From Lysobacteraceae bacterium (lineage in GTDB: Bacteria > Pseudomonadota > Gammaproteobacteria > Xanthomonadales > Xanthomonadaceae): a stretch of DNA of 64,000 nt. Positions 247-14,717 of this stretch are shown here, in pieces. The position numbers were made by a program, and so were the translations under genes. Below the pieces are notes generated by a model that worked only from the letters and a program-made list of their open reading frames with translations, ran no database searches and was not told the origin of the DNA. The stretch is from assembly GCA_016789405.1 (NCBI GenBank), contig JAEUPQ010000034.1:1-64000 (forward strand), written 5' to 3'. Positions within the stretch are counted from its first letter, which is position 1. Every line of letters starts with the position of its first letter.

Positions 247-1914
247 TCATTGCCGGCCCACGCGCGACGCGGCCCACGCCGCCAGCTTTTCCCGGCCGAT
301 CTTCGCGTTGTGGCGGATGTCGACCGGGAATGCCGCAGGGTGATGCAGGAAGGCATCGACCTTCGCCGTGTGCACGAATCCATCGCCGAGGTGGCGCAGT
401 TCCTCTTCGATGCGCGGCCATTCCTGTGCGGACACGCCCGCACGCAGCTCCACGCACAGCACCGCCCGCTGCGCACCGAAGGCGCCAACGCCGACCAGCG
501 CGGTGCGCCGAACCTCGCGATGGGTGTTGAACACCGGTTCGACCTGCTCGGTGCACAGCGTCGTCGTCGCGGTCACCACGCGCTGCGATTTCCGGCCGCA
601 GAACCACAGTCGGCCCTCGGCATCGAAATAACCGAGGTCGCCCATGCGATGCACGATGCGTTCGCCGCCATCGGCCAGCGTCTCGCGGATCTTCGCCAGG
701 CGGGTCTGCGCGTCGCGATTGAAGTACAGGTCGGTGGCGCTGGGGCCCGCGACCGTGATCTCGCCGACGATGCCGCCCTTCACAACCAGATCGTCGGACC
801 AGCCTTCAATCGCGTCGTCGGTGACGCGGATCAGGCGCACCTCGTTCGGCGGCACCGCGCGGCCGACGCAGGTGCCTGCGCCCTGCTCGGTGCGCTCGCG
901 CAGCGTGAGCAGCTCGCGTCCCTCGATGATCGCCACCGGCAGGCATTCGGTCGCACCGTAGGGCGTCCAGAAGCGTCCGTCCGGTGGCAACAACGACTGG
1001 ATCTTCGCGACGACGTCCGCCGGTACCGGCGCACCGGCCGACATCACCGTCTTGACCGTCTTCAGCGATTCGCCGTGATCGGCGAGCACGCGCATCAGGG
1101 CCGGCGAGCCGAACAACTGGTCCACGCCGAAACGTTCGATCGCCGCGTGCAGCTTGCGCGGGTTCGCTTTCGCCGGCCGCGTCGGGTCCATGTCGGGGAT
1201 GATCGACGTCGTGCCCAATGCCGGATCGAACAGCGCGAACGGCGGAAACGTCGGCAGGTTCACGCCGCCCGGCGCGATGCCGAAGGCCGCGCCCATCATT
1301 TCGATCTGCGCCACGAAATGGCGGTGCCGGTACACCACGCCCTTGGGCACGCCTGTCGAGCCGCTGGTGAACAGGATCGCGGCCACGTCGTCGGGCCGGG
1401 TATCGGCAAGCTGTGGCCCGGCGCCGGCGCCACTGGCTTCGACGTCCGCCAGCGTTGCATCCGCGAGGATCGCCCGCGCACCGGTGGTCACGCGAATGCG
1501 CGCGCTGCGCGCCCAGCGCAGCAGCACCCGCGCGAACTGCGCCAGCGGAATGCCGATGAAGGCCTCGGGTTTCGCCTCGTCCAGGCATTGCCGCAGCGCA
1601 CGCTTGTCGATGCCCGGATCCACCAGCACCGGCACGGCACCGGCCTTGAACAGGGCGAACATCAGCAGGAAGAACTCCGGCGTCGGCCGCACCATCACCA
1701 CCGTGCGCGTGCCCCGCGCGATGCCGCGCCTTGCCAGCCCGGCGGCGATCGCATCGCTGCGCGCGTCGAGCTGGGCATAGGTCAGGGCCACGTCGTAGCG
1801 GCCGGACGACCCGGGGCAGCGCATCGCCACCTGGTCGGGGCGCTCGCGGGCCAGGCGCGGCAGGCTGGCGGCGATGTTGCAGGCGGCGGCGGGCGTGTCG
1901 GACGATGGATTCAT
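247..1914 (-). CDS. oleC: AMP-dependent synthetase/ligase, OleC-like (olefin beta-lactone synthetase family)
   Basis: 555-aa ORF. Adenylate-forming enzyme motifs: TSGSTGVPKG (P-loop), YGATE, and a GDLGYxDxxGxLxxxGRK hinge. It lies next to an OleB-like hydrolase, with an OleA-like thiolase 11 kb upstream. High third-position GC. Confidence 0.75.
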   Translation of the reverse strand: MNPSSDTPAAACNIAASLPRLARERPDQVAMRCPGSSGRYDVALTYAQLDARSDAIAAGLARRGIARGTRTVVMVRPTPEFFLLMFALFKAGAVPVLVDPGIDKRALRQCLDEAKPEAFIGIPLAQFARVLLRWARSARIRVTTGARAILADATLADVEASGAGAGPQLADTRPDDVAAILFTSGSTGVPKGVVYRHRHFVAQIEMMGAAFGIAPGGVNLPTFPPFALFDPALGTTSIIPDMDPTRPAKANPRKLHAAIERFGVDQLFGSPALMRVLADHGESLKTVKTVMSAGAPVPADVVAKIQSLLPPDGRFWTPYGATECLPVAIIEGRELLTLRERTEQGAGTCVGRAVPPNEVRLIRVTDDAIEGWSDDLVVKGGIVGEITVAGPSATDLYFNRDAQTRLAKIRETLADGGERIVHRMGDLGYFDAEGRLWFCGRKSQRVVTATTTLCTEQVEPVFNTHREVRRTALVGVGAFGAQRAVLCVELRAGVSAQEWPRIEEELRHLGDGFVHTAKVDAFLHHPAAFPVDIRHNAKIGREKLAAWAASRVGRQ

Positions 1915-2018
1915 GCCTGCATTCTCTCGCGACCGGCGCGGTGCTTGCCAATCACGGCCGGAAGCGCAGAATCCCCGACCCGTCCCTGTCCTCGTGTCAT
2001 CGCCCCGGTTCGCCGCGC

Positions 2019-2378
2019 ATGTCGCATCCCTGCCTGTCCTGCGGCGCCTGCTGCGCCGCCTACCGCGTCAGTTTCCACTGGTCGGAGGCCGACCCGGCGC
2101 TGGGCGGCGTCGTGCCCGTGGAACTGACCGAAACCCTCGGCGCGCACCAGCGCTGCATGCGCGGCACATGGTCGGACCAGCCGCATTGCGTCGCACTGGC
2201 AGGCACGGTCGGCGAGGCCGCGCACTGCACCATCTACGAAGCGCGACCGTCGCCGTGCCGCGAACTGCGGATGTCGTGGGAAGACGGCTCGCCCAACCCG
2301 CAGTGCGACCGCGCACGCGCGCGCTACGGATTGGCGCCACTCACGCCGGAAGAGGCCGCGCGGGCGCGGGACCACTGA
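2019..2378 (+). CDS. YkgJ-family (UPF0153) cysteine-cluster protein, putative Fe-S/Zn-binding
   Basis: 119 aa starting MSHPCLSCGACCAAYRV, i.e. the CxxCGxCC signature of the YkgJ/UPF0153 family. The ORF track shows a longer 1731..2378 ORF, but the family-typical N-terminus begins at the ATG near 2019. It lies opposite-strand between the oleC- and oleB-like genes. Confidence 0.55.
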   Translation: MSHPCLSCGACCAAYRVSFHWSEADPALGGVVPVELTETLGAHQRCMRGTWSDQPHCVALAGTVGEAAHCTIYEARPSPCRELRMSWEDGSPNPQCDRARARYGLAPLTPEEAARARDH

Positions 2379-2412
2379 CTCGCCATCGACGCCACTCGGG
2401 GCGTCTGCGCCA

Positions 2413-3309
2413 TCAGACCGGATTGGCGTCCAGGAAGCGACGGATCGCCGGCACCAGCACCTCGTGCTTGTCTTCCAGCACGTAGTGGTGCGCATCGTGG
2501 AAGGCATGCACCTCGGCATTCGGCAGCGCGCGCTGGAAGCCTTCGAGGAAGTGCTGGTCGAACACGAAGTCCTGGAGCCCCCAGGCGATGAACGCCGGGC
2601 GGTCCGCATACGTCGGCAGGCGCTGTTCCGATGCCTTCAGCAATGCCCAGGCGGGATCGCCCTCGGCGAGCGGGATGTCCTGGACGAAACGCAGCGTGGA
2701 AATGCGGTTCGCCCACGAATCGTAGGGCGCGACGTAGCCGCGATAGACGTCCTTCGACAGCTTGCGCGACACGCAGTCGCGCGCGGTGCCGGCGGCGAAG
2801 GCATTGAACGCGCGGATCAGGAGCGCACCCAGCATCGTGTTGCGGCACAGGTTCAACTGCCACGGCATCGGCTTGGCCGCAGGCAGCGGGAACGCGGCGG
2901 TGTTGGTGATCACCAGTCGGCGCACCTGCGCCTGGTGCGACAGCGCCCAGCCGAAGCCGATCATGCCGCCCCAGTCGTGCACCGCCAGCGTCACCGGCCC
3001 GTCGATGCCCAGGTGTTCGAGCAGCCGCGACACGTCGTCGACGCGCGACTGCAGGGTGTAGGTGTAGCGGTCGTCGCCGGGTTTGTCCGACAAGCCCATG
3101 CCGACGTGGTCCGGCACGATGCAGCGGTACCGATCGCTCAAGCCCGACACCAGGTGCCGCCACAGGAAGCTCCACGAGGGATTGCCATGCAGCATGACGA
3201 CCACCTCGCCATCGCGCGGCCCCTCGTCGAGGTACGACATCGCGATGCCGGGGCGAACCTCGAAGCGGTTCGGTGTGAAGGGGTAATCCGGGAAAGTCTG
3301 CGGGGTCAT
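2413..3309 (-). CDS. oleB: alpha/beta-hydrolase, haloalkane-dehalogenase-like (OleB-like)
   Basis: The ORF track gives 518 aa, but the first 220 codons are an Arg/Pro-rich run typical of GC artefact. The real protein starts MTPQTFPDYPF at 3309, giving 298 aa. It has the HGNPSWSF (HGxP) oxyanion motif, a VHDWGG nucleophile elbow (Asp nucleophile, dehalogenase-type) and a C-terminal His. It is adjacent to oleC. Confidence 0.75.
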   Translation of the reverse strand: MTPQTFPDYPFTPNRFEVRPGIAMSYLDEGPRDGEVVVMLHGNPSWSFLWRHLVSGLSDRYRCIVPDHVGMGLSDKPGDDRYTYTLQSRVDDVSRLLEHLGIDGPVTLAVHDWGGMIGFGWALSHQAQVRRLVITNTAAFPLPAAKPMPWQLNLCRNTMLGALLIRAFNAFAAGTARDCVSRKLSKDVYRGYVAPYDSWANRISTLRFVQDIPLAEGDPAWALLKASEQRLPTYADRPAFIAWGLQDFVFDQHFLEGFQRALPNAEVHAFHDAHHYVLEDKHEVLVPAIRRFLDANPV

Positions 3310-3364
3310 GTCGGGGTCCGGGCCGGCACCGTGGACGGCGGCAGCCTTGCGAAACGAGGCCGCC

Positions 3365-3434
3365 AAGAATAAGGCCTGTGCCGGTTTTTGGCACCGAAAC
3401 CGCACCGAAAAGCGCCGAAAACGCGACTTCGGCC
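3365..3434 (-). repeat. three degenerate 11-bp tandem repeats GCGTTTTCGGC / GCTTTTCGGT / GCGGTTTCGGT (minus-strand reading) followed by a short GTGCC-N7-GGCAC hairpin; possible weak terminator or RNA element after the PLD gene
   Basis: Plus strand reads ...gcctgtgccggtttttggcaccgaaaccgcaccgaaaagcgccgaaaacgcg... The TTTTCGG-type unit occurs three times at about 11-bp period. The stem is 5 bp only, so this is weak as a terminator. Coordinates approximate. Confidence 0.3.
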
Positions 3435-4145
3435 TCAGCGATCTCCGCCGTATGCGGCCCACAGGCGCTCGAAGCGCTCGGCGAAGGCCCGGACCAGGCG
3501 GACGTCGTCGGTGACGATCAGGTTTTCCTCGTTGCCTTCGGTGGCGCTGCGGGTCCAGTTGAAGCTGCCGGTGGCCAGGCGGCGTCCGTCGAACAGGGCG
3601 AACTTGTGGTGCATGTGGAAGGCGCTGGCGTCCAGCCTCACGGGCAAGCCGTGGTCGCGCAGGCGCAGCATGTCGCTGCCGGCATCGTGGACCTTGTGGT
3701 CGTCGCCGATGATGCGTACCGCGACGCCGCGCGCGTGGGCGTCGGTGAGCGCCGAGGTGAGCCGGTCGTCGGAGACGGTATAGACGCAGACATCGATCGC
3801 GCGCTTCGCGCCGAGGCACAGCTCGCGCAGCTTGCGCAGGCAGTCCTCGCCCGGCGAGAACCAGGCATTGGCATCCACCGGCGGCGGATCGGCGACTGCA
3901 TCGAGGGTGCGCACGACCTGCTCCAGCCATCGCAGCAGGTCCATCGGTGCGAACGCCGGATCCGACCACCGCTCGCGCACCAGGTCGAAGGCACGATTGC
4001 GCAGATACCGGACGCGGTCGCGCGCGAGCCCGGCGCCGAGCTGTCGCAGCTCGAGTTTCTCGTCATCGTCCAGCACCGCGTCCGCCGCGCTTTCGCGCAG
4101 CAGGCGATCCAGTTCGGCGAAATCGATCCGGGCCGCGTCGCTCAC
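3435..4145 (-). CDS. phospholipase D-family protein with a single HKD motif (Nuc-like endonuclease or single-HKD phospholipase / cardiolipin-synthase-like), with an N-terminal ~100-aa helical extension
   Basis: 236 aa. It contains HMHHKFALFDGRRLATGSFNWT, i.e. HxK(x)4D(x)6GSxN, the canonical HKD catalytic motif, present once. Single-HKD proteins act as dimers. The GTG start overlaps the stop of the upstream giant gene (GTGA), implying translational coupling. Confidence 0.75.
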   Translation of the reverse strand: MSDAARIDFAELDRLLRESAADAVLDDDEKLELRQLGAGLARDRVRYLRNRAFDLVRERWSDPAFAPMDLLRWLEQVVRTLDAVADPPPVDANAWFSPGEDCLRKLRELCLGAKRAIDVCVYTVSDDRLTSALTDAHARGVAVRIIGDDHKVHDAGSDMLRLRDHGLPVRLDASAFHMHHKFALFDGRRLATGSFNWTRSATEGNEENLIVTDDVRLVRAFAERFERLWAAYGGDR

Positions 4146-7100
4146 CGCGGCGTCCGTCCGAGCAGGCGGTCCGAGAATTCCTCCAGCGCCTTCTGCAACT
4201 GCACTTCGCGTTCGCCCGGCGGCACCAGGGCCTCTTCGCCCGGGGCCCGACGACGACGCGTGCCTGCGGCCGGTGCCGCCTTCATCGCTTCGGTCTGCGC
4301 GGTGATCCGTTCGGCGATCAGCGCCATGACCTGCTGCAACTGCACCTGCTGTTCGGCATGCCGCTCATACCACTCCGGCATGGGCGGCTGCGCAGCCGGC
4401 GGCGCGGCTTCGGGTGAGACCACGCGCGGTGCGGCCATCGCTTCGGACAACCGCTCCAGCGATGCGAGGATCTGCGCCCACGGTGCCGGCTCGGGAGGTG
4501 CAGCAGGCGTTGCGGGCGCACGTTCGCCCAGCTTCTCGAGACCGCGTACGCCTTCGACCAGGTCGGCCAGCTGCGCGACCACGCGCGGGCCGACCTCGGC
4601 ATCGTCGGACCCCATCGCCTTGTTGCGCAGGAAGTCGCGCTTGATCTGCGCCCAGCGCGCAGCCTGGGTTTCGCTCATCACTTCGCGCAGTTCCGCGAGC
4701 TTGAGCAGGTTCTCCTCGGCGCCGGTGGTGAGCAGCTGCGATTCGCCCTGGTAGTGGTCCGCGATGAGCTGCTGCAACTCCGCGGCATTCATCACCGGCG
4801 AGATCTTCTCGGCGAGCTTGTTCATGTTGCGGTAGCTGCCCTGCAGCTTGAACGACGGCTCGGTGCGGTACTTGTCGGCCTGCGCGGCGCTGGCGATGTA
4901 CTGCTGGTTGACGCGGTAGACCACTTCGCGCACCTGCATGAGACGCTCCAGTGTCGCGGTGATCTCGTTGATCTCGGCCGCGCTGTAGGCATGGCTGAGG
5001 CTGTTCGCCGAGAAAGGCTTGCCCGCGATCTTGTCGACCAGCTTGTAGAGATCGCCGAGGTCGCGCGTGGCCAGCGGCGCCAGCACGGCATTGGAGGTCA
5101 GGCAGTTCTCGACATAGCTCAGCTTGAAGGCCTCTTCCATGCCGCCCAGCACGTCGCCGAGGTTGTAGATGTCGGCACGGTTGGCCAGCATGTCCGGGAT
5201 CTTGAAGACCTCGCCGGACTCGGTGTACGGGTTGCCGGCCATGACCACGCAGAATTTCTTGCCGCGCAGGTCGTAGGTGCGGGTGCGTCCCTGCCACACG
5301 CCTTCGATGCGGCGGGTGCCGTCGCACAGCGAGATGAACTTCTGCAGGAACTCCGGGTGCGTGTGCTGGATGTCGTCGACGTACAGCATCACGTTGTTGC
5401 CCATCTCCAGCGCGAGGTTGAGCTTTTCAAGCTCCTGTCGCGCGGCGGCATCGGGTGCCTGTGCCGGGTCGAGCGAACGCACTTCGTGGCCCAGCGCCGG
5501 GCCATTGATCTTCATGAAGATCAGGCCGAGCCGGTGCGCAACGTACTCCATCAGCGTGGTCTTGCCGTAGCCCGGTGGCGAGATCAGCATCAGCATGCCC
5601 ATCAGGTCGCTGCGCTTGCTCTCGCCGACCGTGCCCATCTGCTTGGCCAGGTTGTCGCCGATCACGCCCAGGTAGACATCGTTGATGAGCTTGTTGCGCA
5701 CGAACGAACTCAGCGGACGCGCCTTGAATTCCGACAGGCGCAACGCCTCGCGCTCGCGCGCGACCAGCGCCTGGCGCAACGCATGGCAGCGCCGGAACTT
5801 CGGCAGGAAATCCGAACGATGCCGGCGCAACCGCTCGGCGATATCGTCGACGCCCAGATGGATCGTGCCCGCCGCGATGCGCGGATGCTCGCCGAGCAGG
5901 CCGGCGACGCTCGCGCGCAGGTCGACCTCGACCACCTTCGACAAGGCCTCATCGCCGAGCAGCAGCAGGGCCACCGCTTCCGGCAGATAGTCGATGAGCG
6001 ACGCCTGCGCGGGATCCTGCGCCAGCGCATCGAACCAGTGCCGCGCCAGGTGCCAGCGCGCGGCAGGCTGCTCGCGCAGCGCGTTGAGGGATGCCTGCAG
6101 GTCGTCCCAGAGTCGTTCGGCGACCAGGCGCTGCCGCAAGGCCTCGTGCAGCTGTCGAGCATACTTGCTGAATGCGAAGGACTGGTGCTGCGTGGCGATC
6201 ACGGCGATCAGGTAGTCGGCAGCCGGCGCGCACAGCGCTTCGTCCACGGGCAAACCCTGCGCCTGTGCTTCGGCGTGCATCGCGAGGGCGATCTCGTCGC
6301 GCAGGCTGACCAGTCCGCCACGGTGCGAAAACACGCGATCGATGCTCGTGGCATTGCGCGCACGGTCCGCCCAGAGCCCGGCGTCCTCGCGATCACGGAC
6401 GCTCGACCAGAACAGGCTCGCCCACGCGCGCGCCGCTGGTGCATGCACCAGCAAGCCGGCGCTGTCGCGCAGCGGCAGCAGCGCCGCCAGCAGCAGGGCG
6501 GCATCGTGGTCGTGGATGCCTTTCTCGTACCCGTCGCGATAGCGCGACGCGGAGAATTCGCGGATCGTCTTCGACAGCAGCTCCGGCTGCTTCGCCTGCT
6601 GGCGCAGCAGGTCGAGACTCAGTCCTTCGCGGCCGGCCTCGGCCGCATCGATGACTTCGCCCAGCAGGTACTCGGCGCGATAGAGCTGCGGCGACTCCGA
6701 CTCCAGGCCCAGCGACCAGAAGTCGCGCAGCGCGTCGAGTTCCGCGTCGCGCACCGGCGAGAAGAACTCGGTACCGGTCAGGTGCAGGGCAAGGCCATCC
6801 TCGCGCGGCAGCACCGTGAGATCGAGCTCCTGGGTGTTGACGCTGAAGCGGTGTCGAGGGCCGAGCTTGATGACGTTGCCGCCTTCCTCGAACAGCTCGG
6901 TGCGGTCGCGCAACGCGCGCACGGCCTGGTCGCGCACGCCCTTGAGGCGCGCGTCGATGTCGTCGGCCTTCACCGAATCCTTGAGCGCGCGCAGGCGATC
7001 GGCCAGGTCGCGCAGCTTCAGGATCAGCGCATCGCCGGCGAAGAAGGCATTGAGTTCGTCCATGCCCGAGAGCCGCGCAGTGCGCCTGCCGAGTCCGTCG

Positions 7101-9481
7101 AGGATGCGCGATGCCGCGTCGGCCAGCGACTGGGTCTTGCGCTGGCGCTCGTCGAGCAGCGATTGCTTGTGCGTCTCGAAGGTGTCGAGCAGTTCGTCGC
7201 GCTTGGCGACGATGTCGCCGAGGAACTGCTCGTGCTCGCCGAACTGGCTTTCGAGTTCCTCCAGCTGGATCATCAGCCGCGACAGTTCCTGGTCGCAGCG
7301 CTCCGGGTCCCGCGAAGAAGCCAGCGCACTGGCGATGCTCTGTCCGAACAGCGTGAACTGCGCGCCGAACTGGGCCACGGCTTCGCTCGATCCCAGAGCC
7401 TTGCGGCGCTGGTCCGCGCGCGCCTTGGCCTGGTTGAGCTTCGCGTAGATCTCGGAGATGGTCTCGACGATCCGCGTGCGCCGGGTCGCGTCGTCCACCT
7501 TCAACGTCGCCATCAACTCAGACAGCACGTCCAGGTCCGTGGACAGCGCCTGCATTCCCTGCAGCGGCGTCTGCAGCGCAGTCACGCTGGCCGCCTTCTG
7601 CGCTTCGCCATCAAGCGACTGCAGGCGTTCCGAGAACGGATGCAGCGCCTTGTCTCCCGCGAGGAATCCACTCGTGGCCTCGCCGACCTGCGTCTGCGCG
7701 GCGAGCAACTCCGCCTCCATCGCGTCGACGGCGGCCACGTCGACATAGCGCTGCTCGCGAAGCGTCAGCAGGCGCCCGCGCTGCGCAGTGATCGCGTTGA
7801 GTGCATCGACGCAATCCTGGACCTTTTCCCAGCTGTCCGGATGCAAGCCGCCCAGCAGCGTCTTCTGTCGCTCGGACGCGTCGCGCATCGCGTCCGCGGA
7901 CTGGCGACGGATGCTCTCGACCTTTTCGTACTCGTCGAGCACGGCCTCGCTGCTGGCGACGATCTCGCGCAGCAGCGGCGCCAATCCATCGCAATGCCGG
8001 TCCTCGATCCAGTGGTACTGGTCGAACAGGCGACGTGTGGTCTGGGTGAGCAACTGGTAGCGCTGCGCCGACACGTCGGCGGTGTCGATCTCGCGCGCGA
8101 GACTCAGCAGGTCGGAGATGCCGCGCACCAGTTCAGGGTTGCCGATGCGCCCCATGAACGTATTCGCCGCGGGCGCCTTCGCCACATGGTCGTCGAAGGC
8201 GAACGGCGTCTGCCACACCTGCATCGGATGGATCTTCGTCGGCTCGCTGCTCTGGGCCGTGAAGATCACCATGCGCCCGTCTTCCAGCCGCGCATAGCCA
8301 TGACCGATGATCGGCGGCTGCATGCCCCGCTGGATCGTGTTGTAGACGAACAGCGCGACGCGGCCATCCTGCGGCTCGTAGAACAGGTACAGCACGTCCT
8401 CGCCATTGGGCGAGCGGATCTTGCGCTTGAAGCGCATGCCTTCGACGGCCTGGTCGAACGTGCGGGTCTCGCCATTCTGCAGCATGTAGCCACCGGGAAA
8501 GACGATGCCGTGGTCGTCCGGCAACTGCACGCAGGCCTGGCCGATGGCATCGATGCGATGCACCTTGCCTGAAATCGTGTTGTAGGCCAGGTGGCGCCAC
8601 TGCTGTTCCCGGTACGGCAGGACCTTCAGCAGCACGAGACTGCCGACCCGCGCGAAGTCGACCTGCGCGTCGTCGAGCGACTGGGTCTTGTCCTCCACCG
8701 GCTCGCGGTAGATGCCCAGTCCATCCTCGGTGTTGTTCTCGACCTTGATCGTCAGGTCGCCATTGACCGTCTCGACGAACAAGGTATCGAGGATGTTGAG
8801 GTGCGGGTGCCGGCCGTTGACGGCCATGTCGCGCGTCGCGCGCATCCATTCGAAGTCGTAGGGCGCCGGCAGGGCGATGTCGCGCTCACCCCGGTTGTCG
8901 ATGTAGCGCACGCCGCTGCCGTCGACATGCCAGCGGAAGACGCGCATGTCCTCGATGCGCTCGCCGATCTGGAACGCCGCCAGCAACTTGTCGTCGCGCA
9001 CCACCAGCTGCAGGAGCTTCGTGTCCTTGTAGTAGGCGTGCAGCTCGGTGAAGTCCTTCACGAACGCGGCTTCGCCGAGGAAACTCGCCGACGCGGCGAC
9101 GGGCGTCACGTCGTAGCCATCGGCGCCTTCGACCAGACGGTACAGCGAGAACACGTCCTCGATCCGGGTCTCCTTCTTGAGCCCGATGAAGACGTTGTAG
9201 CCGAAGAGCAGGCAATCGCCGACCTGCACGATGTCGCGTGCGACGCAGTTGTGCTCGGTGCGGATGCGCAGGCGCCCGACGACCTCCATCCGGCTGCTGC
9301 CGAACTCCTGCAGCCGCTGCGTGTTCAGGCCCTCGGCGAGGACACGAAGTTGCGCGCCCTGGTCGCCGAGACGCTTGCGCAGCACGTCATAGGCGCCGCC
9401 TTCGGCGACGGCCTTGTCGACTTGCGACACAGCGAGAGCTGCACCGTCCGTATTCGCACTTGTCGTGGTGTTTTCCGCCAT
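4142..9481 (-). CDS. giant (1779 aa) cytoplasmic protein: N-terminal beta-rich region (~450 aa), ~600 aa of predicted coiled coil, a helical region, one AAA+ ATPase module (Walker A at about residue 1305), and a Pro/Ala/Gln-rich coiled-coil tail; family not recognised
   Basis: ATG start with GGAAG upstream. AAA+ motifs appear in canonical order and spacing: Walker A ISPPGYGKTT; Walker B VMLYVDDIQ about 55 aa later; sensor-1 and arginine finger CVVMAGNPYTESGEVFKIPDMLANRADIY about 45 aa after that. Heptad-like charged repeats (for example ELLAAQTQVGEATS..., LEELESQFGEHEQFLGDIVAKRDELLDTFETHKQSLLDERQRK). No TM segments seen. High third-position GC throughout. Confidence 0.8.
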   Translation of the reverse strand: MAENTTTSANTDGAALAVSQVDKAVAEGGAYDVLRKRLGDQGAQLRVLAEGLNTQRLQEFGSSRMEVVGRLRIRTEHNCVARDIVQVGDCLLFGYNVFIGLKKETRIEDVFSLYRLVEGADGYDVTPVAASASFLGEAAFVKDFTELHAYYKDTKLLQLVVRDDKLLAAFQIGERIEDMRVFRWHVDGSGVRYIDNRGERDIALPAPYDFEWMRATRDMAVNGRHPHLNILDTLFVETVNGDLTIKVENNTEDGLGIYREPVEDKTQSLDDAQVDFARVGSLVLLKVLPYREQQWRHLAYNTISGKVHRIDAIGQACVQLPDDHGIVFPGGYMLQNGETRTFDQAVEGMRFKRKIRSPNGEDVLYLFYEPQDGRVALFVYNTIQRGMQPPIIGHGYARLEDGRMVIFTAQSSEPTKIHPMQVWQTPFAFDDHVAKAPAANTFMGRIGNPELVRGISDLLSLAREIDTADVSAQRYQLLTQTTRRLFDQYHWIEDRHCDGLAPLLREIVASSEAVLDEYEKVESIRRQSADAMRDASERQKTLLGGLHPDSWEKVQDCVDALNAITAQRGRLLTLREQRYVDVAAVDAMEAELLAAQTQVGEATSGFLAGDKALHPFSERLQSLDGEAQKAASVTALQTPLQGMQALSTDLDVLSELMATLKVDDATRRTRIVETISEIYAKLNQAKARADQRRKALGSSEAVAQFGAQFTLFGQSIASALASSRDPERCDQELSRLMIQLEELESQFGEHEQFLGDIVAKRDELLDTFETHKQSLLDERQRKTQSLADAASRILDGLGRRTARLSGMDELNAFFAGDALILKLRDLADRLRALKDSVKADDIDARLKGVRDQAVRALRDRTELFEEGGNVIKLGPRHRFSVNTQELDLTVLPREDGLALHLTGTEFFSPVRDAELDALRDFWSLGLESESPQLYRAEYLLGEVIDAAEAGREGLSLDLLRQQAKQPELLSKTIREFSASRYRDGYEKGIHDHDAALLLAALLPLRDSAGLLVHAPAARAWASLFWSSVRDREDAGLWADRARNATSIDRVFSHRGGLVSLRDEIALAMHAEAQAQGLPVDEALCAPAADYLIAVIATQHQSFAFSKYARQLHEALRQRLVAERLWDDLQASLNALREQPAARWHLARHWFDALAQDPAQASLIDYLPEAVALLLLGDEALSKVVEVDLRASVAGLLGEHPRIAAGTIHLGVDDIAERLRRHRSDFLPKFRRCHALRQALVAREREALRLSEFKARPLSSFVRNKLINDVYLGVIGDNLAKQMGTVGESKRSDLMGMLMLISPPGYGKTTLMEYVAHRLGLIFMKINGPALGHEVRSLDPAQAPDAAARQELEKLNLALEMGNNVMLYVDDIQHTHPEFLQKFISLCDGTRRIEGVWQGRTRTYDLRGKKFCVVMAGNPYTESGEVFKIPDMLANRADIYNLGDVLGGMEEAFKLSYVENCLTSNAVLAPLATRDLGDLYKLVDKIAGKPFSANSLSHAYSAAEINEITATLERLMQVREVVYRVNQQYIASAAQADKYRTEPSFKLQGSYRNMNKLAEKISPVMNAAELQQLIADHYQGESQLLTTGAEENLLKLAELREVMSETQAARWAQIKRDFLRNKAMGSDDAEVGPRVVAQLADLVEGVRGLEKLGERAPATPAAPPEPAPWAQILASLERLSEAMAAPRVVSPEAAPPAAQPPMPEWYERHAEQQVQLQQVMALIAERITAQTEAMKAAPAAGTRRRRAPGEEALVPPGEREVQLQKALEEFSDRLLGRTPR
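5130..5615 (-). other. AAA+ ATPase module inside the giant protein (Walker A GYGKTT at about 5548-5580)
   Basis: By-eye motif mapping: PPGYGKTT ... LYVDDIQ ... VMAGNPYT ... DMLANRADIY. Coordinates approximate (plus or minus a few nt). Confidence 0.6.
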
Positions 9482-9699
9482 GTCTTCCGATCGTCGCTGT
9501 CAGTGGCGCGGCGACTACGACCCCGCGCCGATTTCAAGGGAAATGCTTGTTGCCTGTCGGCACTGCAACCATGACGGGTTCGAACGCCATCGATTTCCAC
9601 CGTCTTCGACGGCCATCGTCTGCTCGGAACCGTTCACCAACGGTACGCAGGAACCCTGGCGCCGATCCACCCGGCATTGCATTTTCGATGCTCTGCGCG

Positions 9700-10287
9700 T
9701 CACGCACCCGTGCTGACCGCTGCCATTTTGTCGCATGGCCCGGACACACCCTGCTTCCGCCTGATCTCATCCGGCCCCATGGCCGCTGCCGTGCCTGATT
9801 GGTGGGATGCTGGAACCCATTCACGCACCTTCTGCTCTTTCAAGACAACGGCATCGACGTACGTGACGGCTTTCGATTTCGTGCAGATGATCACGAGTGC
9901 GAATCGCCCGCCCCCCATGTCCAGCGCACTGGCGTCCATGGCTTCTGCAGATGCGACCTTGCGGACGTCGACGGAGCCCATCGCATCCTTCCTGGCAGCA
10001 AGGCGTGCTTCGAAGTCCCGGTACTCGTTCGCGTCTCGATAGGCTTTCAGCATCCCGGTCCAGAGCTGCTCGTACATGGCCCGGTCGGCCATTTCCACAT
10101 AGCGCATCGCCGCGAGTGTCGCTCCTTCCCGCTCGACTGCTCTCAGTGCGACCACCGTTCCTTCGAAGTCAAGCGATTCCTCCTGCCCTGCATGGACTTC
10201 GCCTGCAAGGACTTCGCCTGCATCGCCGCATCCCGAGACCAGCATCGTCGCTCCCAGCACCATCGCCATCATTGCGGTACGAATCAT
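9700..10287 (-). CDS. putative lipoprotein of unknown function
   Basis: The ORF track gives 9700..10317 from a TTG. The in-frame ATG at 10287 (MIRTAMMAMVLGATMLVSGCGDAG) gives a typical lipoprotein signal peptide with lipobox LVSGC and a GAGGAA RBS about 10 nt upstream. The C-terminal part is low-complexity, so the true stop and extent are uncertain. Confidence 0.45.
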   Translation of the reverse strand: MIRTAMMAMVLGATMLVSGCGDAGEVLAGEVHAGQEESLDFEGTVVALRAVEREGATLAAMRYVEMADRAMYEQLWTGMLKAYRDANEYRDFEARLAARKDAMGSVDVRKVASAEAMDASALDMGGGRFALVIICTKSKAVTYVDAVVLKEQKVREWVPASHQSGTAAAMGPDEIRRKQGVSGPCDKMAAVSTGA

Positions 10288-10415
10288 GTTTGCCAATTCC
10301 TCATGAGATCTGTTCAACGGGGGATGGAGCGGACAACACGGATCTCGACCGAATCATCGCCGCGCTCGGCGACGACGATCCGCGCGGAGCCTCGCATCGA
10401 CCGCCGGGAGCTGGA

Positions 10416-12404
10416 TCAAGCTTCTTCCGGTTCCACGGCCTTCTTCCCACCCACCTGCATCGACAGCAGCTTCTGCAGCACTTCCTGCACGATCGGACTC
10501 TTGCCGGCGACGCCTTCCACCGCCTTGCCGACCGACAGCGCCTTGGCGAACGAGTCGAAGAACGCACCTTCGCCGCCGACGATGTCGATGTTCGCCTTGG
10601 CCAGCGCGGTGGACAGCACCTCGGCCTGCTCGCGCGCGATCTCCTTGTTCGCTTCGATCGAGGCCAGCGCCTGCTCGAAGTTCTTTTCCAGCTGCATGCG
10701 GAACTCCTCGTGCGCACGCGCCTGGTCGCTGAGCGAGCCCAGCGCGCCGAACTTCTCGGTCAGACCCTCGGCCTCCGAGCGGTACTTCTGGCGCATCACT
10801 TCGGCCTCGCTGAAGCCGACGTCCTTGGTGACCTTCGCCTGCGCCTCGCCCAGCTGCGTTTCGCCGCGCGCCTTCGCTGCCAGGTTCTCTTCGAGTACCT
10901 TCGCGTCGGCGAGGCCCTTGTCCTGCGTGCCGCGCGCTTCCGCGGCCAGGGTTTCGGCGACCACGCGCGCCTTGGCCAGGCCTTCCTTCTCGAGCGCCGC
11001 CGCGGTGATCTCGCGCACGCGCGCATCGGCCAGACCGGGCGCCGCGCGCTCGGCTTCGATACCTTCCGCCATGCGCTTCTTCGCCTCGGCCTGCTTCGCA
11101 GCCGCTTCCAGTTCGGCCTGCGCGATCACGGTCAGCTCGACCGCCTTGTGCTTCGATGCCTGCTCGTCGGCTTCGGCCTGCTTGACCTGGCGCACCAGCT
11201 CTTCTTCGGCCTTGGCCTGCGCGGCGAGGATCGTCACCTGCTTCTTGCGATCGGCCTCGGACACTTCACGCACTTCCTTGATGCGCTCCTGCTCCAGCGC
11301 CACGGTCTTGTCGACGGCGACGCGCTCGCGGACCACGTTGGCGATGTCCTTGCGCTGGATCTCCAGCGCCTTTTCCTTCTCGATCTTCTGCAGCTCGACC
11401 TCGCGCTCGCGAGACACGATCTCGAGTTCCTTGGCGCGCGTGACCTTCTCGACCTCGATCACGACGGCACGCTGGCGATTCTGCTCGGCCACTTCGACTT
11501 CGCGCAGCCTGTTCTGGTCGCGGATGTCGAGCTGCTCCTGGGTCGCCAGGCGCGCCTGCTCGGCCTTGAGGCGCTCTTCTTCCTGCACCTTCAGCGTTTC
11601 GGCTTCTTCGCGCGCACGAATCGTTGCGATCTCGCGCTTCTGGCGCGCCTCGGCATCGGCCTGCTGGCGCTCCAGCGCGAGCATCGCCTCGCGCGTCTCG
11701 ACGTTCTTCTTGGTGATCGCAAGTTCCTCGTTGCGCGCCAGCTCGTTGGTGATGACGTTCTGCGCGGCGGTGAGCTCGGTGATCTTGCGGATGCCTTCGG
11801 CGTCGAGGATGTTGCTCGGGTCGAGCGAGTTCTTCGGCGTCTGCTCCAGGTAGTCGATCGCGACGTCTTCCAGCACGTAGCCGTTGAGGTCGTTGCCGAT
11901 GACCTGGATGATGCGGTCGCGGAACTCCTGGCGGTTCTCGAACAGCTTCACGAAGTCGATCTGCTTGCCGACCGTCTTCAGCGCTTCGGAGAACTTCGCG
12001 TTGAACAGCTCGTTGACCGCGACCTTGTCGGACGCGCGGTCGACGCCGATCGCCTTGGCCACCTTCAGCACGTCCTGCGCGGTCTCGTTGACGCGCAGGT
12101 AGAACGCGACGGTGATGTCGGCACGCATGTTGTCCTGGCAGATCAGTCCGTCCTTGCCGCGGCGATCCACTTCGAGGGTGATCAGCGAGATCCGCATGAA
12201 CTCCTTCTTGTAGATCACCGGATAGACCAGCGCACCAGTGAAATGCACCTTCGGCGTCGACGACATGTCGTTGACGATCAGCGCCGTGCCCTGCGGCACC
12301 TTGATGTAGAAGGCCTTGAAGAGGCCGACGATGCCGAGCAGCATCACGATGATGGCGCCCGTGATTGTTAGGAGCATCATGACGTTCGGACCCAGGTCGT
12401 TCAT
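10416..12404 (-). CDS. flotillin-like SPFH/band-7 protein (YqiK family)
   Basis: 662 aa from ATG at 12404, with a strong AGGAGGAA RBS 7 nt upstream. It has an N-terminal TM helix, then an SPFH domain (KVPQGTALIVNDMSS...ITLEVDRRGKDGLICQDNMRADITVAFYLRV), then a very long EA/K-rich coiled-coil/flotillin region. The extra N-terminal codons in the track ORF (GTG at 12455) are rejected. Confidence 0.85.
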   Translation of the reverse strand: MNDLGPNVMMLLTITGAIIVMLLGIVGLFKAFYIKVPQGTALIVNDMSSTPKVHFTGALVYPVIYKKEFMRISLITLEVDRRGKDGLICQDNMRADITVAFYLRVNETAQDVLKVAKAIGVDRASDKVAVNELFNAKFSEALKTVGKQIDFVKLFENRQEFRDRIIQVIGNDLNGYVLEDVAIDYLEQTPKNSLDPSNILDAEGIRKITELTAAQNVITNELARNEELAITKKNVETREAMLALERQQADAEARQKREIATIRAREEAETLKVQEEERLKAEQARLATQEQLDIRDQNRLREVEVAEQNRQRAVVIEVEKVTRAKELEIVSREREVELQKIEKEKALEIQRKDIANVVRERVAVDKTVALEQERIKEVREVSEADRKKQVTILAAQAKAEEELVRQVKQAEADEQASKHKAVELTVIAQAELEAAAKQAEAKKRMAEGIEAERAAPGLADARVREITAAALEKEGLAKARVVAETLAAEARGTQDKGLADAKVLEENLAAKARGETQLGEAQAKVTKDVGFSEAEVMRQKYRSEAEGLTEKFGALGSLSDQARAHEEFRMQLEKNFEQALASIEANKEIAREQAEVLSTALAKANIDIVGGEGAFFDSFAKALSVGKAVEGVAGKSPIVQEVLQKLLSMQVGGKKAVEPEEA

Positions 12405-12480
12405 TGCGTTTCCTCCTGATCTCTCATTGCATTGTTCGTTCGCTGCACCGCCCACGGAATCCGGGCATCGGCACAGATGG

Positions 12481-13176
12481 TCATATTTCTTCGAATTCCG
12501 TCGTCGACGTCACCCGATAGGCGTTCTGTTCATCCAGGTATTCGATCAGCACGACGCGATCGCCCCTCACGAAACGGCCTGGTACGTCGCAACGCACCTG
12601 CAGGATCAATCCGGCGCCGCCGTCATCGACCCAGGCGGTACCGTGCGTGTGCGTGATCTCCGGGCTGCGCACCTCGGCATAGCGGCCGAGCAACGGGCGC
12701 TGCGTGACCGGTTCGTAGCGGCGCAGCAGCCTGCGCACCGGGGCCAGCACCATGCGCCCGACCGGGATCGACAACAGCAGGCCACCGAACATCGTCGCGA
12801 TCGCGGCCAGCGTGGCGCCGATGCCTTCGGGCATCGCACTGATCACATGCAGGTCGACCATGAAGCAGAACGACCAGCCGACGATGGCGATGATCGTGAA
12901 GACCACCATCACCGGTACGCCGTGCAGACCGAACTTCATCAGGAAGCCGCCGAAGCTGCCATGGTCGCCGTGCGCATCGTGCGAACCGTGCGCGCCATGC
13001 GCTCCGTGGGCACCGTGCATGGCATCGGCGCCGATGTCGTCCGGCAGCAGGCCATCCAGCGCGTCGAGCTCGAGGATGCCCAGCGCCGACAGCAGCCAGT
13101 GCACGGTCACCACCAGCAGCAGCACGCTGTACACGACGGTCGGGAACGATGTCACGACCTTCAGGAACACTTCCAT
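12481..13176 (-). CDS. YqiJ/NfeD-like inner-membrane protein (partner of flotillin), with a His-Gly repeat loop
   Basis: 231 aa. Two TM segments. A C-terminal OB-fold-like region (GRYAEVRSPEITHTHGTAWVDDGGAGLILQVRCD...GDRVVLIEY) as in NfeD/YqiJ proteins. GGAGG RBS upstream. Contains HGAHGAHGAHGSHDAHGDHG. Confidence 0.7.
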   Translation of the reverse strand: MEVFLKVVTSFPTVVYSVLLLVVTVHWLLSALGILELDALDGLLPDDIGADAMHGAHGAHGAHGSHDAHGDHGSFGGFLMKFGLHGVPVMVVFTIIAIVGWSFCFMVDLHVISAMPEGIGATLAAIATMFGGLLLSIPVGRMVLAPVRRLLRRYEPVTQRPLLGRYAEVRSPEITHTHGTAWVDDGGAGLILQVRCDVPGRFVRGDRVVLIEYLDEQNAYRVTSTTEFEEI

Positions 13177-13249
13177 CTCGCCTCCCCTCTTCTCGCGGCG
13201 CGTTTCATCGCCGCCTGCCCCTTGCCGAAAACTACGCCTTGCTCGTCCG

Positions 13250-14448: not shown

Positions 14449-14639
14449 GGCGAGCTCTCCTTCCGTCGGCGCCGCCGGCGAGGGCCCGCCTCGCGGCAGG
14501 CGCATCCGCCGCTCCACGGCCGCCAGTTCGTCGGCGTATTCGGGCAACACCCACAACTCCTTCTTCACCAGGCCCTGCTCGCGCAGGCGGTCGCGATGTC
14601 GTCGCTGGTAGAAGGCGGAGCTGCGGCGTTCCATGCATC

Positions 14640-14700: not shown

Positions 14701-14717
14701 AACGCCGACCCTCAGGC

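What the first reader, a model, noticed from the sequence alone, without database searches (positions are those of the whole stretch)
3435..4145. Single-HKD PLD-family enzyme translationally coupled to the giant AAA+ gene
One canonical HxK(x)4D(x)6GSxN motif (HMHHKFALFD...GSFNWT) at about 3582-3612 marks a Nuc-like or single-HKD phospholipase-D superfamily enzyme. It has a roughly 100-aa helical N-terminal extension and no signal peptide. Its GTG start overlaps the giant gene's TGA (GTGA), so expression is probably stoichiometrically tied to the giant protein. Single-HKD PLD proteins are nucleases (Nuc, BfiI-like, many defence effectors) or lipid-modifying enzymes, and which one applies here determines the biology of the whole module.
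Basis: partly seen in the sequence, partly recalled or inferred. Interest (0 to 1): 0.65.

Follow-up and report, generated by a model that had tools for sequence, protein, structure and literature searches.

The report
BacF: Zucchini-like PLD of bac operon
The gene is real and is the Lysobacter copy of bacF, the last gene of the published PspA-flotillin-giant-ATPase "bac" membrane-stress operon; it encodes an intact Nuc/Zucchini-type single-HKD phosphodiesterase whose substrate (nucleic acid or membrane lipid) has never been tested.

Summary
ORF 3435..4145 (-) encodes a 236-aa protein with one intact HxK(x)4D(x)6GSxN motif. It has a four-helix N-terminal domain and no signal peptide or TM segment. 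Its only possible start, GTG, overlaps the TGA of the 1779-aa DUF3686/AAA+ gene (GTGA).

The locus is not new. It is the ortholog of the Pseudomonas aeruginosa bacABCDEF operon: DUF2170/YjfI, PspA, 3TM NfeD-like, TM+coiled-coil flotillin-like, giant AAA+, PLD. Co-transcription of that operon is published, and the PLD was noted by comparative genomics in 2024.

In 64 of 80 related genomes the PLD follows the giant gene. Only 29 of those have a spacing of 36 nt or less. In 32, genes for a rhomboid protease, TelA or a zinc-ribbon protein lie between them. At least 11 genomes keep the PLD without the giant.

The closest characterised relatives are nucleases, at about 39-40% identity: mouse/human/fly Zucchini (MitoPLD) and plasmid Nuc. 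Almost all conserved neighbours are membrane proteins.

I favour a membrane-stationed nuclease-type phosphodiesterase (about 0.45) over a cardiolipin/PG hydrolase (about 0.35). Verdict: new member of a known kind, moderate interest.

The parts
3435..4145 (-). bacF ortholog: 236-aa single-HKD PLD-superfamily protein (the finding)
   Evidence: ORF. GC3 0.88. PLDc_2 5.6e-29. Full-length homologs at 42-95% identity in 80 genomes.
4142..4145 (-). GTGA start/stop overlap between the giant gene (TGA) and bacF (GTG)
   Evidence: Sequence. It is the only in-frame start before conserved D8. The same 4-nt overlap occurs in L001, L003, L004, L006 and L083.
3888..4145 (-). N-terminal four-helix domain (aa 1-86), specific to this family
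3450..3848 (-). PLD (HKD) catalytic domain, aa 100-232
   Evidence: Pfam. Ungapped 144-aa alignment to human PLD6 at 39% identity. Foldseek top hits are Zucchini, Nuc and NucT.
3552..3617 (-). HxK(x)4D(x)6GSxN catalytic motif (HMHHKFALFDGRRLATGSFNWT)
   Evidence: H179, K181, G193, S194 and N196 are invariant and D186 is at 98% in 66 sequences.
3414..3433 (-). Weak terminator-like hairpin just after the bacF stop. A 125-nt spacer separates bacF from oleB.
   Evidence: where the count of such sites is no higher than in shuffles. The fold is not exceptional, z = -0.97. This is weak evidence only.
4142..9481 (-). bacE ortholog: 1779-aa giant protein, DUF3686 + DUF7902 + AAA+ module
   Evidence: Pfam. 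54-91% identical orthologs lie upstream of the PLD in 64/80 loci. PA14_16190 is described as a predicted DNA-repair ATPase (PMC8855297).
9700..10287 (-). DUF4019 lipoprotein ORF inserted between bacD and bacE. It is lineage-specific and probably not part of the core module.
   Evidence: Pfam DUF4019 1.2e-6. Lipobox LVSGC. GC3 only 0.68. Among 80 loci it is present only in L002.
10416..12404 (-). bacD ortholog: one N-terminal TM, then a long Glu/Ala/Lys/Arg-rich stretch read as coiled coil. Called band-7/flotillin in the literature.
   Evidence: TM at aa 21-54 and sequence inspection. Start with AGGAGG Shine-Dalgarno. 58-95% identity across genera. No Pfam, NCBIfam or PDB sequence hit. Architecture taken from PMC11237479.
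12481..13176 (-). bacC ortholog: hydrophobic TM segments plus a C-terminal soluble domain (YqiJ/YuaF, NfeD-like 3TM protein per the literature)
   Evidence: Hydropathy scan. Synteny. PMC11237479.
13250..14011 (-). bacB ortholog: PspA/IM30 (ESCRT-III superfamily). Its ATG overlaps the bacA TGA (ATGA).
   Evidence: PspA_IM30 7.7e-40. Start and overlap.
14008..14634 (-). bacA ortholog: DUF2170/YjfI (CesT/Tir-like), first gene of the operon
   Evidence: DUF2170 3.1e-50. Alignment A3.
14641..14670 (-). Sigma-70-like promoter match (TTGACA-18-CATGAT) upstream of bacA. It follows a terminator-like hairpin (14725-14740) after oleA.
   Evidence: a consensus match only. No sigma-54 -24/-12 site within 2 mismatches in this intergenic region.

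Best explanation
The gene is the Lysobacteraceae ortholog of bacF, the last cistron of the bacABCDEF envelope-stress operon.

Operon order: DUF2170/YjfI chaperone-like protein, PspA (a bacterial ESCRT-III relative), 3TM NfeD-like protein, TM + coiled-coil flotillin-like protein, giant DUF3686-AAA+ ATPase, PLD.

Chemistry: BacF is a cytoplasmic, catalytically intact Nuc/Zucchini-class single-HKD phosphodiesterase. Two chains must pair to build one active site from two HKD motifs. Catalysis runs through a phospho-histidine intermediate (family knowledge).

Expression: here it is made by termination-reinitiation at the GTGA junction with the giant ATPase gene.

Inferred steps: its acidic, family-specific four-helix N-domain docks it onto the membrane-bound PspA/flotillin/AAA+ assembly. 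There it most likely cuts single-stranded nucleic acid (RNA or DNA) next to the stressed membrane. This resembles membrane-anchored Zucchini, and flotillin-organised RNase Y/RNase J assemblies.

Shown: gene, motif, fold class, operon membership, coupling, phyletic pattern. Inferred: dimerisation, docking role of the N-domain, substrate.

Probabilities: the operon/enzyme-class part is about 0.9 likely. The nucleic-acid substrate call is about 0.45, against about 0.35 for phospholipid.
For: Orthology and operon:
- The order PspA, 3TM protein, flotillin-like protein, giant, PLD is conserved in 64/80 genomes from Lysobacter, Pseudomonas, Halopseudomonas, Oceanospirillales and Motilimonas. It is also found in Vibrio.
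- In P. paraeruginosa (L062) the PLD starts 15-16 nt after the giant's stop and is followed by yaeQ and recJ.
- In PA14, RT-PCR links PA14_16190 to PA14_16200. Both proteins rise 6-9 fold in a bacA mutant (PMC10948618).

Enzyme class:
- PLDc_2 at 5.6e-29, with a conserved catalytic motif.
- Best solved relatives by sequence are human/mouse PLD6 (5.8e-29, 39% identity, ungapped), fly Zucchini, Nuc and NucT. The same proteins top the fold search.
- Conjugative-plasmid Nuc-family proteins match the PLD domain at about 40% identity.
- Every one of these with a purified-enzyme assay is a nuclease (established knowledge: Nuc, NucT, Zucchini).

Coupling: overlaps or spacers of 3 nt or less recur in distant lineages. 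The window clade has -4, L064 -1, L079 +3, Vibrio 0, L082 +1 and L083 -4.

Nucleic-acid hints:
- A Upf1-like SF1 helicase (AAA_11/AAA_12, with or without an MTES_1575 nuclease domain) lies next to the PLD in three lineages. In L033 its ATG (second codon of the listed ORF) overlaps the PLD stop by 1 nt.
- Flotillins are documented organisers of membrane RNase assemblies (PMC7492731).
Against: - No biochemical or genetic data exist for BacF itself.
- Nearly all recurrent neighbours are membrane proteins: PspA, flotillin-like, NfeD-like, rhomboid, TelA. In L077 they are a canonical Band_7/NfeD pair plus rhomboid, with no giant and no PspA. That fits a lipid substrate at least as well as a nucleic acid.
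- The helicase adjacency covers only 11 of 80 loci and could be inherited synteny.
- The Zn-binding Cys/His residues near the start of the PLD6 alignment (CxC...H) are not conserved. BacF has A92, A94 and P98 there (alignment).
- The PLD-domain pI (6.7) gives no basic signature, although the human PLD6 domain is equally neutral at 6.6.
Confidence: 0.45

Rival explanations
1. BacF is a membrane-lipid phosphodiesterase. Stationed at PspA/flotillin microdomains, it hydrolyses an anionic phospholipid headgroup (cardiolipin or PG) to phosphatidic acid. That changes local curvature and charge and helps PspA- and AAA+-driven membrane repair or remodelling. This is the activity originally claimed for its eukaryotic relative MitoPLD.
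For: - Context is overwhelmingly membrane-related. It includes PspA, a TM flotillin-like protein and a 3TM NfeD-like protein.
- A rhomboid gene lies next to the PLD in about 28 of 80 loci: between giant and PLD in 27, and just after the PLD in L077.
- TelA lies between giant and PLD in 5 Lysobacter-group loci, upstream of the PLD on the short contig L076, and after the PLD in Vibrio.
- In L077 the PLD sits with rhomboid, NfeD and Band_7 and no giant.
- In Xanthomonadales the gene sits inside the ole (membrane olefin) cluster in two different arrangements.
- Best PDB sequence match is 'mitochondrial cardiolipin hydrolase'. JGI names homologs the same way.
- PMC11237479 treats the operon as a membrane-dynamics system.
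Against: - No small single-HKD Nuc/Zuc-type enzyme has been shown with purified protein to cleave phospholipid. Purified Zucchini and Nuc cleave nucleic acids and not phospholipids (established knowledge, not re-read here).
- The 'cardiolipin hydrolase' names are transferred annotation.
- The protein has no TM or obvious membrane-inserting segment.
- Cardiolipin-synthase models score far below cutoff: ClsB 16 bits versus 281.
- Linkage to ole may be inherited regional synteny.
Confidence: 0.35
2. The giant AAA+ protein plus PLD form an anti-phage or abortive-infection module. The ATPase senses infection or membrane breach and the PLD nuclease degrades invader or host nucleic acid, as proposed for PLD components of DISARM, Mokosh or Dpd.
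For: - PADLOC models for DrmC, MkoB/C and DpdK give weak hits to the PLD domain, best 1.3e-8.
- The architecture is a large ATPase plus a small nuclease.
- An SF1 helicase-REase gene is adjacent in some lineages.
- PspA is historically a 'phage shock' protein.
Against: - The hits reflect generic PLD homology. NCBIfam DrmC scores 32 bits versus a cutoff of 133, and DpdK 21 versus 100.
- No partner genes of those systems are present.
- The giant has no defence-model hit beyond a P-loop match at E = 0.005.
- The locus is a syntenic chromosomal block with 54-95% protein identity across orders. That is unlike a variable defence island.
- Full-length copies are absent from phages and from true plasmids. 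Only Vibrio/Photobacterium secondary chromosomes carry them.
- P. aeruginosa bac mutants show biofilm, rhamnolipid and virulence phenotypes (PMC10948618).
Confidence: 0.07
3. BacF is a non-catalytic adaptor like eukaryotic MITD1 (MIT domain + PLD fold). The helical N-domain would bind the ESCRT-III-like PspA polymer and the PLD fold would bind membrane.
For: - The domain order is the same: small helical domain, then PLD fold.
- It shares an operon with a bacterial ESCRT-III homolog.
- MITD1 binds ESCRT-III and membranes through exactly these two domains (PMC6015221).
Against: - The catalytic His, Lys, Asp, Ser, Asn and Glu are invariant or near-invariant in 66 sequences. That argues for enzymatic activity.
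- MITD1 was not among the top 50 Foldseek hits listed.
Confidence: 0.03

Closest known systems
BacF (PA14_16200; by synteny PA3727) of the Pseudomonas aeruginosa bacABCDEF 'biofilm-associated cluster' / Psp-like operon
   Same: - Same gene order: DUF2170, PspA, 3TM protein, flotillin-like protein, giant DUF3686-AAA+, PLD.
- 56% identity to the P. paraeruginosa protein over the full length, N-domain included.
- Close juxtaposition to the giant gene.
   Different: - Here there is a 4-nt GTGA overlap instead of a 15-16-nt spacer with a GAGGAG Shine-Dalgarno.
- A DUF4019 lipoprotein gene is inserted between bacD and bacE.
- The operon sits inside the ole cluster.
- No sigma-54-like site lies upstream of bacA, whereas one was proposed in PA14.
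- Equating PA14_16200 with the PLD rests on synteny in L062, not on reading the PA14 sequence.
Zucchini / MitoPLD / PLD6 (animal piRNA-biogenesis endoribonuclease, 'mitochondrial cardiolipin hydrolase')
   Same: - Best solved-structure relative: 5.8e-29, with 39% identity over an ungapped 144 residues.
- Same single-HKD fold.
- Both act, or are predicted to act, at a membrane surface.
- Both are sometimes paired with a Upf1-like SF1 helicase (Armitage/MOV10L1 in animals, PMC4378194).
   Different: - BacF has a soluble four-helix N-domain instead of an N-terminal TM anchor.
- The Cys/His residues at the start of the PLD6 alignment are not conserved.
- It is bacterial and cytoplasmic.
- No PIWI pathway is present.
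Nuc (pKM101/IncN) and NucT single-HKD endonucleases
   Same: The PLD domain is about 40% identical to many conjugative-plasmid Nuc-family proteins. Nuc 1byr scores 3e-11 and NucT 1.3e-6. The dimeric single-HKD architecture is the same.
   Different: - Nuc and NucT are secreted or periplasmic with signal peptides and no N-domain.
- BacF has neither a signal peptide nor plasmid linkage.
- NCBIfam NucT models score 30-51 bits against cutoffs of 211-351.
MITD1 (MIT domain + PLD fold, ESCRT-III and membrane binder)
   Same: A small helical N-domain followed by a PLD fold, functionally linked to an ESCRT-III-family polymer.
   Different: MITD1's PLD fold is catalytically dead, whereas BacF's is intact. 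The N-domain is not detectably a MIT domain. This is an analogy only.

Membership tests
PLD (HKD) superfamily, PLDc_2 | HxK(x)4D(x)6G(S/T)xN motif and a Pfam score above the gathering threshold | tested here: met
   Motif at aa 179-196. PF13091 scores 101 bits versus a cutoff of 27. Conserved in the family.
Single-HKD (Nuc/Zucchini-type) subgroup | One HKD motif per chain of about 150 aa, so that a homodimer forms the active site | tested here: inconclusive
   There is one motif and one PLD domain, and the fold matches Zuc, Nuc and NucT. Dimerisation itself could not be modelled with these tools.
BacF of the bacABCDEF / CesT-PspA-flotillin-AAA+ operon | Encoded downstream of, and on the same strand as, DUF2170, PspA, 3TM protein, flotillin-like protein and DUF3686-AAA+ giant | tested here: met
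   Window gene order. The same order is found in 64/80 loci, including P. paraeruginosa. Literature.
BacF of the bacABCDEF / CesT-PspA-flotillin-AAA+ operon | Co-transcription with the giant gene | not testable with these tools
   Shown by RT-PCR only in P. aeruginosa PA14 (PMC10948618). Here it is inferred from the 4-nt overlap.
Zucchini / MitoPLD (PLD6) | N-terminal transmembrane anchor to a membrane | tested here: not met
   No TM-like segment. The N-terminus is a soluble acidic four-helix domain.
Zucchini / MitoPLD (PLD6) | Zn-binding Cys/His cluster preceding the catalytic core (ligand identity recalled from the Zucchini structures, not re-read) | tested here: not met
   In the ungapped alignment, human C34, C36 and H40 align with A92, A94 and P98.
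Zucchini / MitoPLD (PLD6) | ssRNA/ssDNA endonuclease activity | not testable with these tools
   Needs a purified-protein assay.
Nuc / NucT endonucleases | NCBIfam equivalog score above cutoff; secreted (signal peptide) | tested here: not met
   Best NucT model scores 50.6 bits versus a cutoff of 297. The others score 30-50 versus 211-351. There is no signal peptide.
DISARM DrmC / Dpd DpdK / Mokosh PLD components | Model score above cutoff and presence of the system's partner genes | tested here: not met
   DrmC_I scores 32 bits versus 133, and DpdK 21 versus 100. PADLOC hits are weak. The neighbours are PspA, flotillin-like and ole genes, not drm, dpd or mko genes.
Cardiolipin synthases (ClsA/B/C) | Two HKD motifs in one chain; model score above cutoff | tested here: not met
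   There is a single motif. ClsB scores 16 bits versus 281.
MITD1-like (MIT + PLD fold) | N-terminal three-helix MIT domain | tested here: not met

The most novel reading that the evidence does not exclude
The BacF family is the bacterial counterpart, possibly the ancestor-type, of eukaryotic MitoPLD/Zucchini. It would work inside a conserved membrane-scaffold machine made of an SPFH/flotillin protein, NfeD, a rhomboid protease, a giant AAA+ ATPase and an ESCRT-III-like PspA. This set strikingly parallels mitochondrial SLP2-PARL-AAA protease microdomains.

Either of two activities would follow. It could hydrolyse cardiolipin/PG to phosphatidic acid to drive PspA-mediated membrane repair. Or, with the adjacent Upf1-like helicase, it could act as a membrane-tethered ssRNA endonuclease that prefigures the Zucchini-Armitage pair.

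Either outcome would give the long-disputed 'lipase or nuclease' question about MitoPLD a tractable bacterial model.
Probability: 0.2. Interest if true: 0.7.

Novelty: new member of a known kind. Interest (0 to 1): 0.35.

Why it matters
The gene and its link to the giant ATPase are already in the literature, so the locus itself is not a discovery.

What remains open, and is sharpened here, is BacF's biochemistry. It is an intact, strongly conserved Zucchini/Nuc-type enzyme. It travels with SPFH/flotillin, NfeD, rhomboid, TelA and PspA genes across Gammaproteobacteria. No one has tested whether it cuts nucleic acid or phospholipid.

The bac operon affects biofilm, rhamnolipid production and virulence in P. 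aeruginosa. Bacterial PspA is now viewed as an ESCRT-III relative. Knowing what this enzyme does at the membrane would therefore inform both envelope-stress biology and the unresolved lipase-versus-nuclease debate about its mitochondrial relative.

Tried and rejected
2. N-domain in other architectures. A search of 1.84 billion cluster representatives found 48 clusters, all 279 aa or shorter, with the match at or near the N-terminus in all but two. The domain is not shared with other protein types.
3. Defence-system reading. PADLOC and NCBIfam scores are below cutoffs and there are no partner genes. Full-length copies are absent from phages and true plasmids.
4. Charge or pI as a nuclease/lipase discriminator. 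It is uninformative: the PLD domain pI is 6.7 and the human PLD6 domain is 6.6.
5. Intrinsic terminator after bacF. The scan hit is no better than shuffles and the fold has z = -0.97.
6. Sigma-54 promoter as proposed in PA14. No match within 2 mismatches lies upstream of bacA.
7. Confirming flotillin identity of the 662-aa BacD by sequence. There is no Pfam, NCBIfam or PDB hit. I rely on the TM/coiled-coil pattern and on PMC11237479.
8. Literature searches for DUF3686, PA3727 and bacterial Zucchini homologs found no functional data.
9. Foldseek against AFDB50 was unavailable.
10. ORFs 2324..3394 (-), 2464..3372 (+) and 2413..3969 (-) that overlap or adjoin the finding are frame artefacts of a 67% GC genome. 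The real gene there is oleB, 2413..3309 (-).
Full report
**1. The observation**

The window is 67.5% GC, so long spurious ORFs are common. I used GC by codon position to pick real genes.

- ORF 3435..4145 (-) has GC1/2/3 of 0.75/0.46/0.88. This is the same signature as the giant ORF 4142..9481 (-) at 0.70/0.42/0.88.
- Its translation contains HMHHKFALFDGRRLATGSFNWT, that is H179-x-K181-x4-D186-x6-G193-S194-x-N196 (window 3552-3617).
- Pfam PLDc_2 matches aa 112-229 at 5.6e-29.
- The minus strand reads ...CCG CGG TGA for the giant, and GTG AGC for the next gene. GTG (4145-4143) and TGA (4144-4142) therefore share three bases.
- That GTG is the first start codon after the upstream in-frame stop. 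No other start codon precedes the conserved D8-F9, so the start is unambiguous.
- A hydropathy scan finds no TM or signal-like segment.
- AlphaFold2 gives four N-terminal helices, a floppy linker (aa 87-98) and a PLD domain (aa 100-232). The N-domain modelled alone reaches pLDDT 87 and pTM 0.76.

All parts of the observation are confirmed.

**2. What the locus is**

All genes below are on the minus strand, listed from upstream to downstream.

- bacA: DUF2170/YjfI, 14008..14634, E = 3e-50.
- bacB: PspA/IM30, 13250..14011, E = 8e-40. Its ATG overlaps the DUF2170 stop as ATGA.
- bacC: a 231-aa protein with hydrophobic TM segments, 12481..13176.
- bacD: a 662-aa protein with one TM and a long Glu/Ala/Lys/Arg-rich stretch read as coiled coil, 10416..12404.
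- A small DUF4019 lipoprotein ORF, 9700..10287.
- bacE: the giant DUF3686 + DUF7902 + AAA+ protein, 4142..9481.
- bacF: the PLD, 3435..4145.

This is the gene order of the P. aeruginosa bacABCDEF operon. In PA14, RT-PCR linked every junction, including PA14_16190 to PA14_16200. All downstream proteins rose 6-13 fold in a bacA mutant (PMC10948618). [quoted passage not shown]

In the closely related P. paraeruginosa locus L062, the giant is followed after 15-16 nt by the PLD, then by yaeQ and recJ. BacF is therefore the PLD.

Independently, a comparative-genomics study of PSP systems described the same operon. The function of BacE and BacF is not.

**3. How conserved the giant-PLD link is**

A scan of one genome per species returned at least 587 relatives, of which the best 80 were kept. 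I mapped window proteins onto them by tblastn.

- 64 of 80 loci have the giant upstream on the same strand, almost always preceded by the flotillin-like protein, the 3TM protein and PspA.
- The lineages are Lysobacter, Thermomonas, Marilutibacter, Pseudomonas, Ectopseudomonas, Phytopseudomonas, Halopseudomonas, Oceanospirillales and Motilimonas.
- Vibrio campbellii chromosome 2 has an NfeD-like gene, the flotillin-like gene, the giant, the PLD and TelA. The spacer between giant and PLD is 0 nt.
- Two divergent metagenomic copies have the giant's C-terminus directly upstream, at +1 and -4 nt.

The junction is not constant. The spacings below are upper bounds, because I took the start codon nearest the conserved D8.

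| Spacing between giant stop and PLD start | Loci (of 64) | What lies between |
|---|---|---|
| Overlap | 5 | nothing |
| 0-36 nt | 24 | nothing |
| 64-211 nt | 3 | nothing identified |
| About 550-630 nt | 24 | a rhomboid gene (Pfam 1.7e-19) |
| 1.1-1.3 kb | 3 | rhomboid plus a zinc-ribbon protein |
| 1.8-1.9 kb | 5 | a 262-aa ORF plus TelA (7.8e-69) |

At least 11 loci with 7 kb or more of upstream sequence lack the giant:

- Stenotrophomonas-type loci read oleA-oleB-PLD-oleC.
- Tahibacter and related Lysobacterales carry a stand-alone PLD.
- Pleionea has an SF1 helicase upstream.
- Cellvibrionaceae L077 has PLD, rhomboid, NfeD and Band_7.

The PLD is thus a frequent, tightly placed, but separable accessory of the module. 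Tight coupling is real here, but it is not a family-wide rule. It does not establish stoichiometry.

**4. What kind of enzyme it is**

- By sequence, the best solved relatives are human and mouse PLD6/MitoPLD/Zucchini. The E-values are 5.8e-29 and 4e-27, with an ungapped 144-residue alignment at 39% identity. Fly Zucchini, Nuc (3e-11) and NucT (1e-6) follow.
- Foldseek ranks the same proteins first.
- More than 5000 plasmids, mostly conjugative, encode Nuc-family proteins that match only the PLD domain, at about 40% identity.
- The catalytic residues are essentially invariant across 66 family members. H179, K181, G193, S194 and N196 are at 100%; D186, N205, E207 and N208 are at 98%. The protein is therefore an enzyme, not a dead scaffold.
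- It fails the curated cutoffs for NucT, DrmC, DpdK and ClsB.
- It lacks Zucchini's TM anchor.
- The Cys/His residues at the head of the PLD6 alignment are not conserved.

It belongs to the Nuc/Zucchini clade but is not an ortholog of any named member.

The N-domain is found only at or near the N-terminus of this family. There are 48 clusters among 1.84 billion representatives, none longer than 279 aa. It has no specific structural relative. Its conserved motifs are E-K-x-E-L-R, R-[FY]-L-R-N-R-A-F-D and W-L-E-Q-V-x-K-T-L-D.

**5. Mechanism**

The robust part is this. BacF is a cytoplasmic single-HKD phosphodiesterase. It needs a homodimer to form its active site and works through a phospho-histidine intermediate (family knowledge). 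It is produced as the last cistron of a PspA/flotillin/AAA+ envelope-stress operon.

The substrate is unresolved.

Homology favours nucleic acid:
- Every purified enzyme in this clade is a nuclease (Nuc, NucT, Zucchini; established knowledge).
- A Upf1-like SF1 helicase lies beside the PLD in three lineages. In L033 its ATG (second codon of the listed ORF) overlaps the PLD stop by 1 nt.
- Flotillins are known to organise membrane RNase assemblies (PMC7492731).

Context favours lipid:
- PspA, flotillin-like, NfeD-like, rhomboid and TelA genes recur around the PLD.
- An independent Band_7/NfeD set accompanies it in L077.
- In Xanthomonadales the gene sits inside the ole membrane-olefin cluster.

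I put about 0.45 on a membrane-stationed nuclease and about 0.35 on a cardiolipin/PG hydrolase. I put about 0.07 on a defence effector, about 0.03 on a MITD1-like adaptor, and the rest on other phosphodiester substrates.

The docking role of the N-domain is inference only.

**6. Novelty and score**

The gene is a new member of a known kind: a Lysobacter BacF ortholog.

Points that add modestly to the literature:
- the Zucchini-level similarity;
- the family-specific N-domain;
- the recurring insertion of rhomboid or TelA between giant and PLD;
- the occurrence of the PLD with a different SPFH/NfeD set;
- the helicase adjacency;
- the embedding in the ole cluster.

Interest is 0.35. The locus is ordinary as a discovery, but it points at an experimentally cheap and unanswered question.

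Noticed in passing
window 247-15802 (oleC 247..1914, oleB 2413..3309, bac operon 3435..14634, oleA 14780..15802, all minus strand): The whole bacA-F operon sits between oleA and oleB of the olefin (ole) cluster. Stenotrophomonas-type loci (L021, L023, L024, L026) instead read oleA-oleB-PLD-oleC with no bacA-E. The PLD therefore stays inside the ole cluster in two different arrangements. Whether this is functional linkage or inherited synteny is unexplained.
   Followed up: partly
window 9700-10287 (-): A DUF4019 lipoprotein ORF (lipobox LVSGC) lies between bacD and bacE. Its GC3 is unusually low for this genome (0.68 versus about 0.88). Among 80 related loci it is present only in L002. It looks like a recent insertion into the operon.
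   Followed up: partly
window 10416-12404 (-): The BacD ortholog (662 aa; one TM plus a long charged coiled-coil-like stretch) is the best-conserved protein of the operon. It is 75-95% identical between Lysobacter and Pseudomonas. Yet it has no Pfam, NCBIfam or PDB sequence hit at all. Its band-7/flotillin assignment rests on the literature.
   Followed up: partly
window 14500-14634 (-) and alignment A3: BacA carries an N-terminal basic segment of about 45 aa (MERKSSAxYQRRHRxRLREQGLVKKEVWVLPE...). Many of its positions are invariant from Lysobacter to Pseudomonas, and it lies ahead of the DUF2170 domain. It has a weak MazE-like hit (E = 0.018). It could be a nucleic-acid- or partner-binding element relevant to BacA's proposed regulatory role.
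   Followed up: no
window 14634-14745 (-): Upstream of bacA lies a GC-rich terminator-like hairpin after oleA, followed by a TTGACA-18-CATGAT match. Two copies of the palindrome-like ACATGTGA/TCACATGTGA flank the -35 element. No sigma-54 -24/-12 site is present within 2 mismatches, unlike the site proposed for P. aeruginosa PA14.
   Followed up: partly
window 14008-14011 (-): The bacA stop and bacB (PspA) start overlap as ATGA, with a GGGAGG Shine-Dalgarno. This is a second translationally coupled pair in the same operon.
   Followed up: yes
L027-L059, L071-L075, L077 (e.g. L033 9437-9988): A short rhomboid-family gene (about 183-193 aa) is inserted between the giant and the PLD in many Pseudomonas and Oceanospirillales. 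Its start overlaps the giant's stop in L033. In L077 it follows the PLD and precedes NfeD and Band_7.
   Followed up: yes
L045, L056, L060, L063, L070, L076 (e.g. L045 8896-10002); L081 12694-13752: TelA (toxic anion resistance family) recurs next to the PLD in a Lysobacter subgroup, between giant and PLD and together with a 262-aa ORF of no known family. In Vibrio campbellii it lies directly after the PLD.
   Followed up: partly
L033 10687-13401 and 8 other Ectopseudomonas loci; L079 11046-13850; L080 5341-9564: A Upf1-like SF1 helicase (AAA_11/AAA_12; MTES_1575 nuclease domain in L079/L080, DUF4011 in L080) lies next to the PLD in three lineages. The pairing recalls Zucchini with the Armitage/MOV10L1 helicase, but may be only synteny.
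   Followed up: partly
window 4142-4750 (-), C-terminal ~200 aa of the giant protein: The giant protein ends in a Pro/Ala-rich, low-complexity tail. tblastn matches to relatives mostly stop short of it. This tail lies immediately before the coupled PLD start.
   Followed up: no
window 1731-2378 (+): An ORF with a CxxCxxCC (YkgJ-type) zinc/iron-chelating domain lies on the opposite strand between oleB and oleC. It is conserved at that position in related Lysobacteraceae loci.
   Followed up: no
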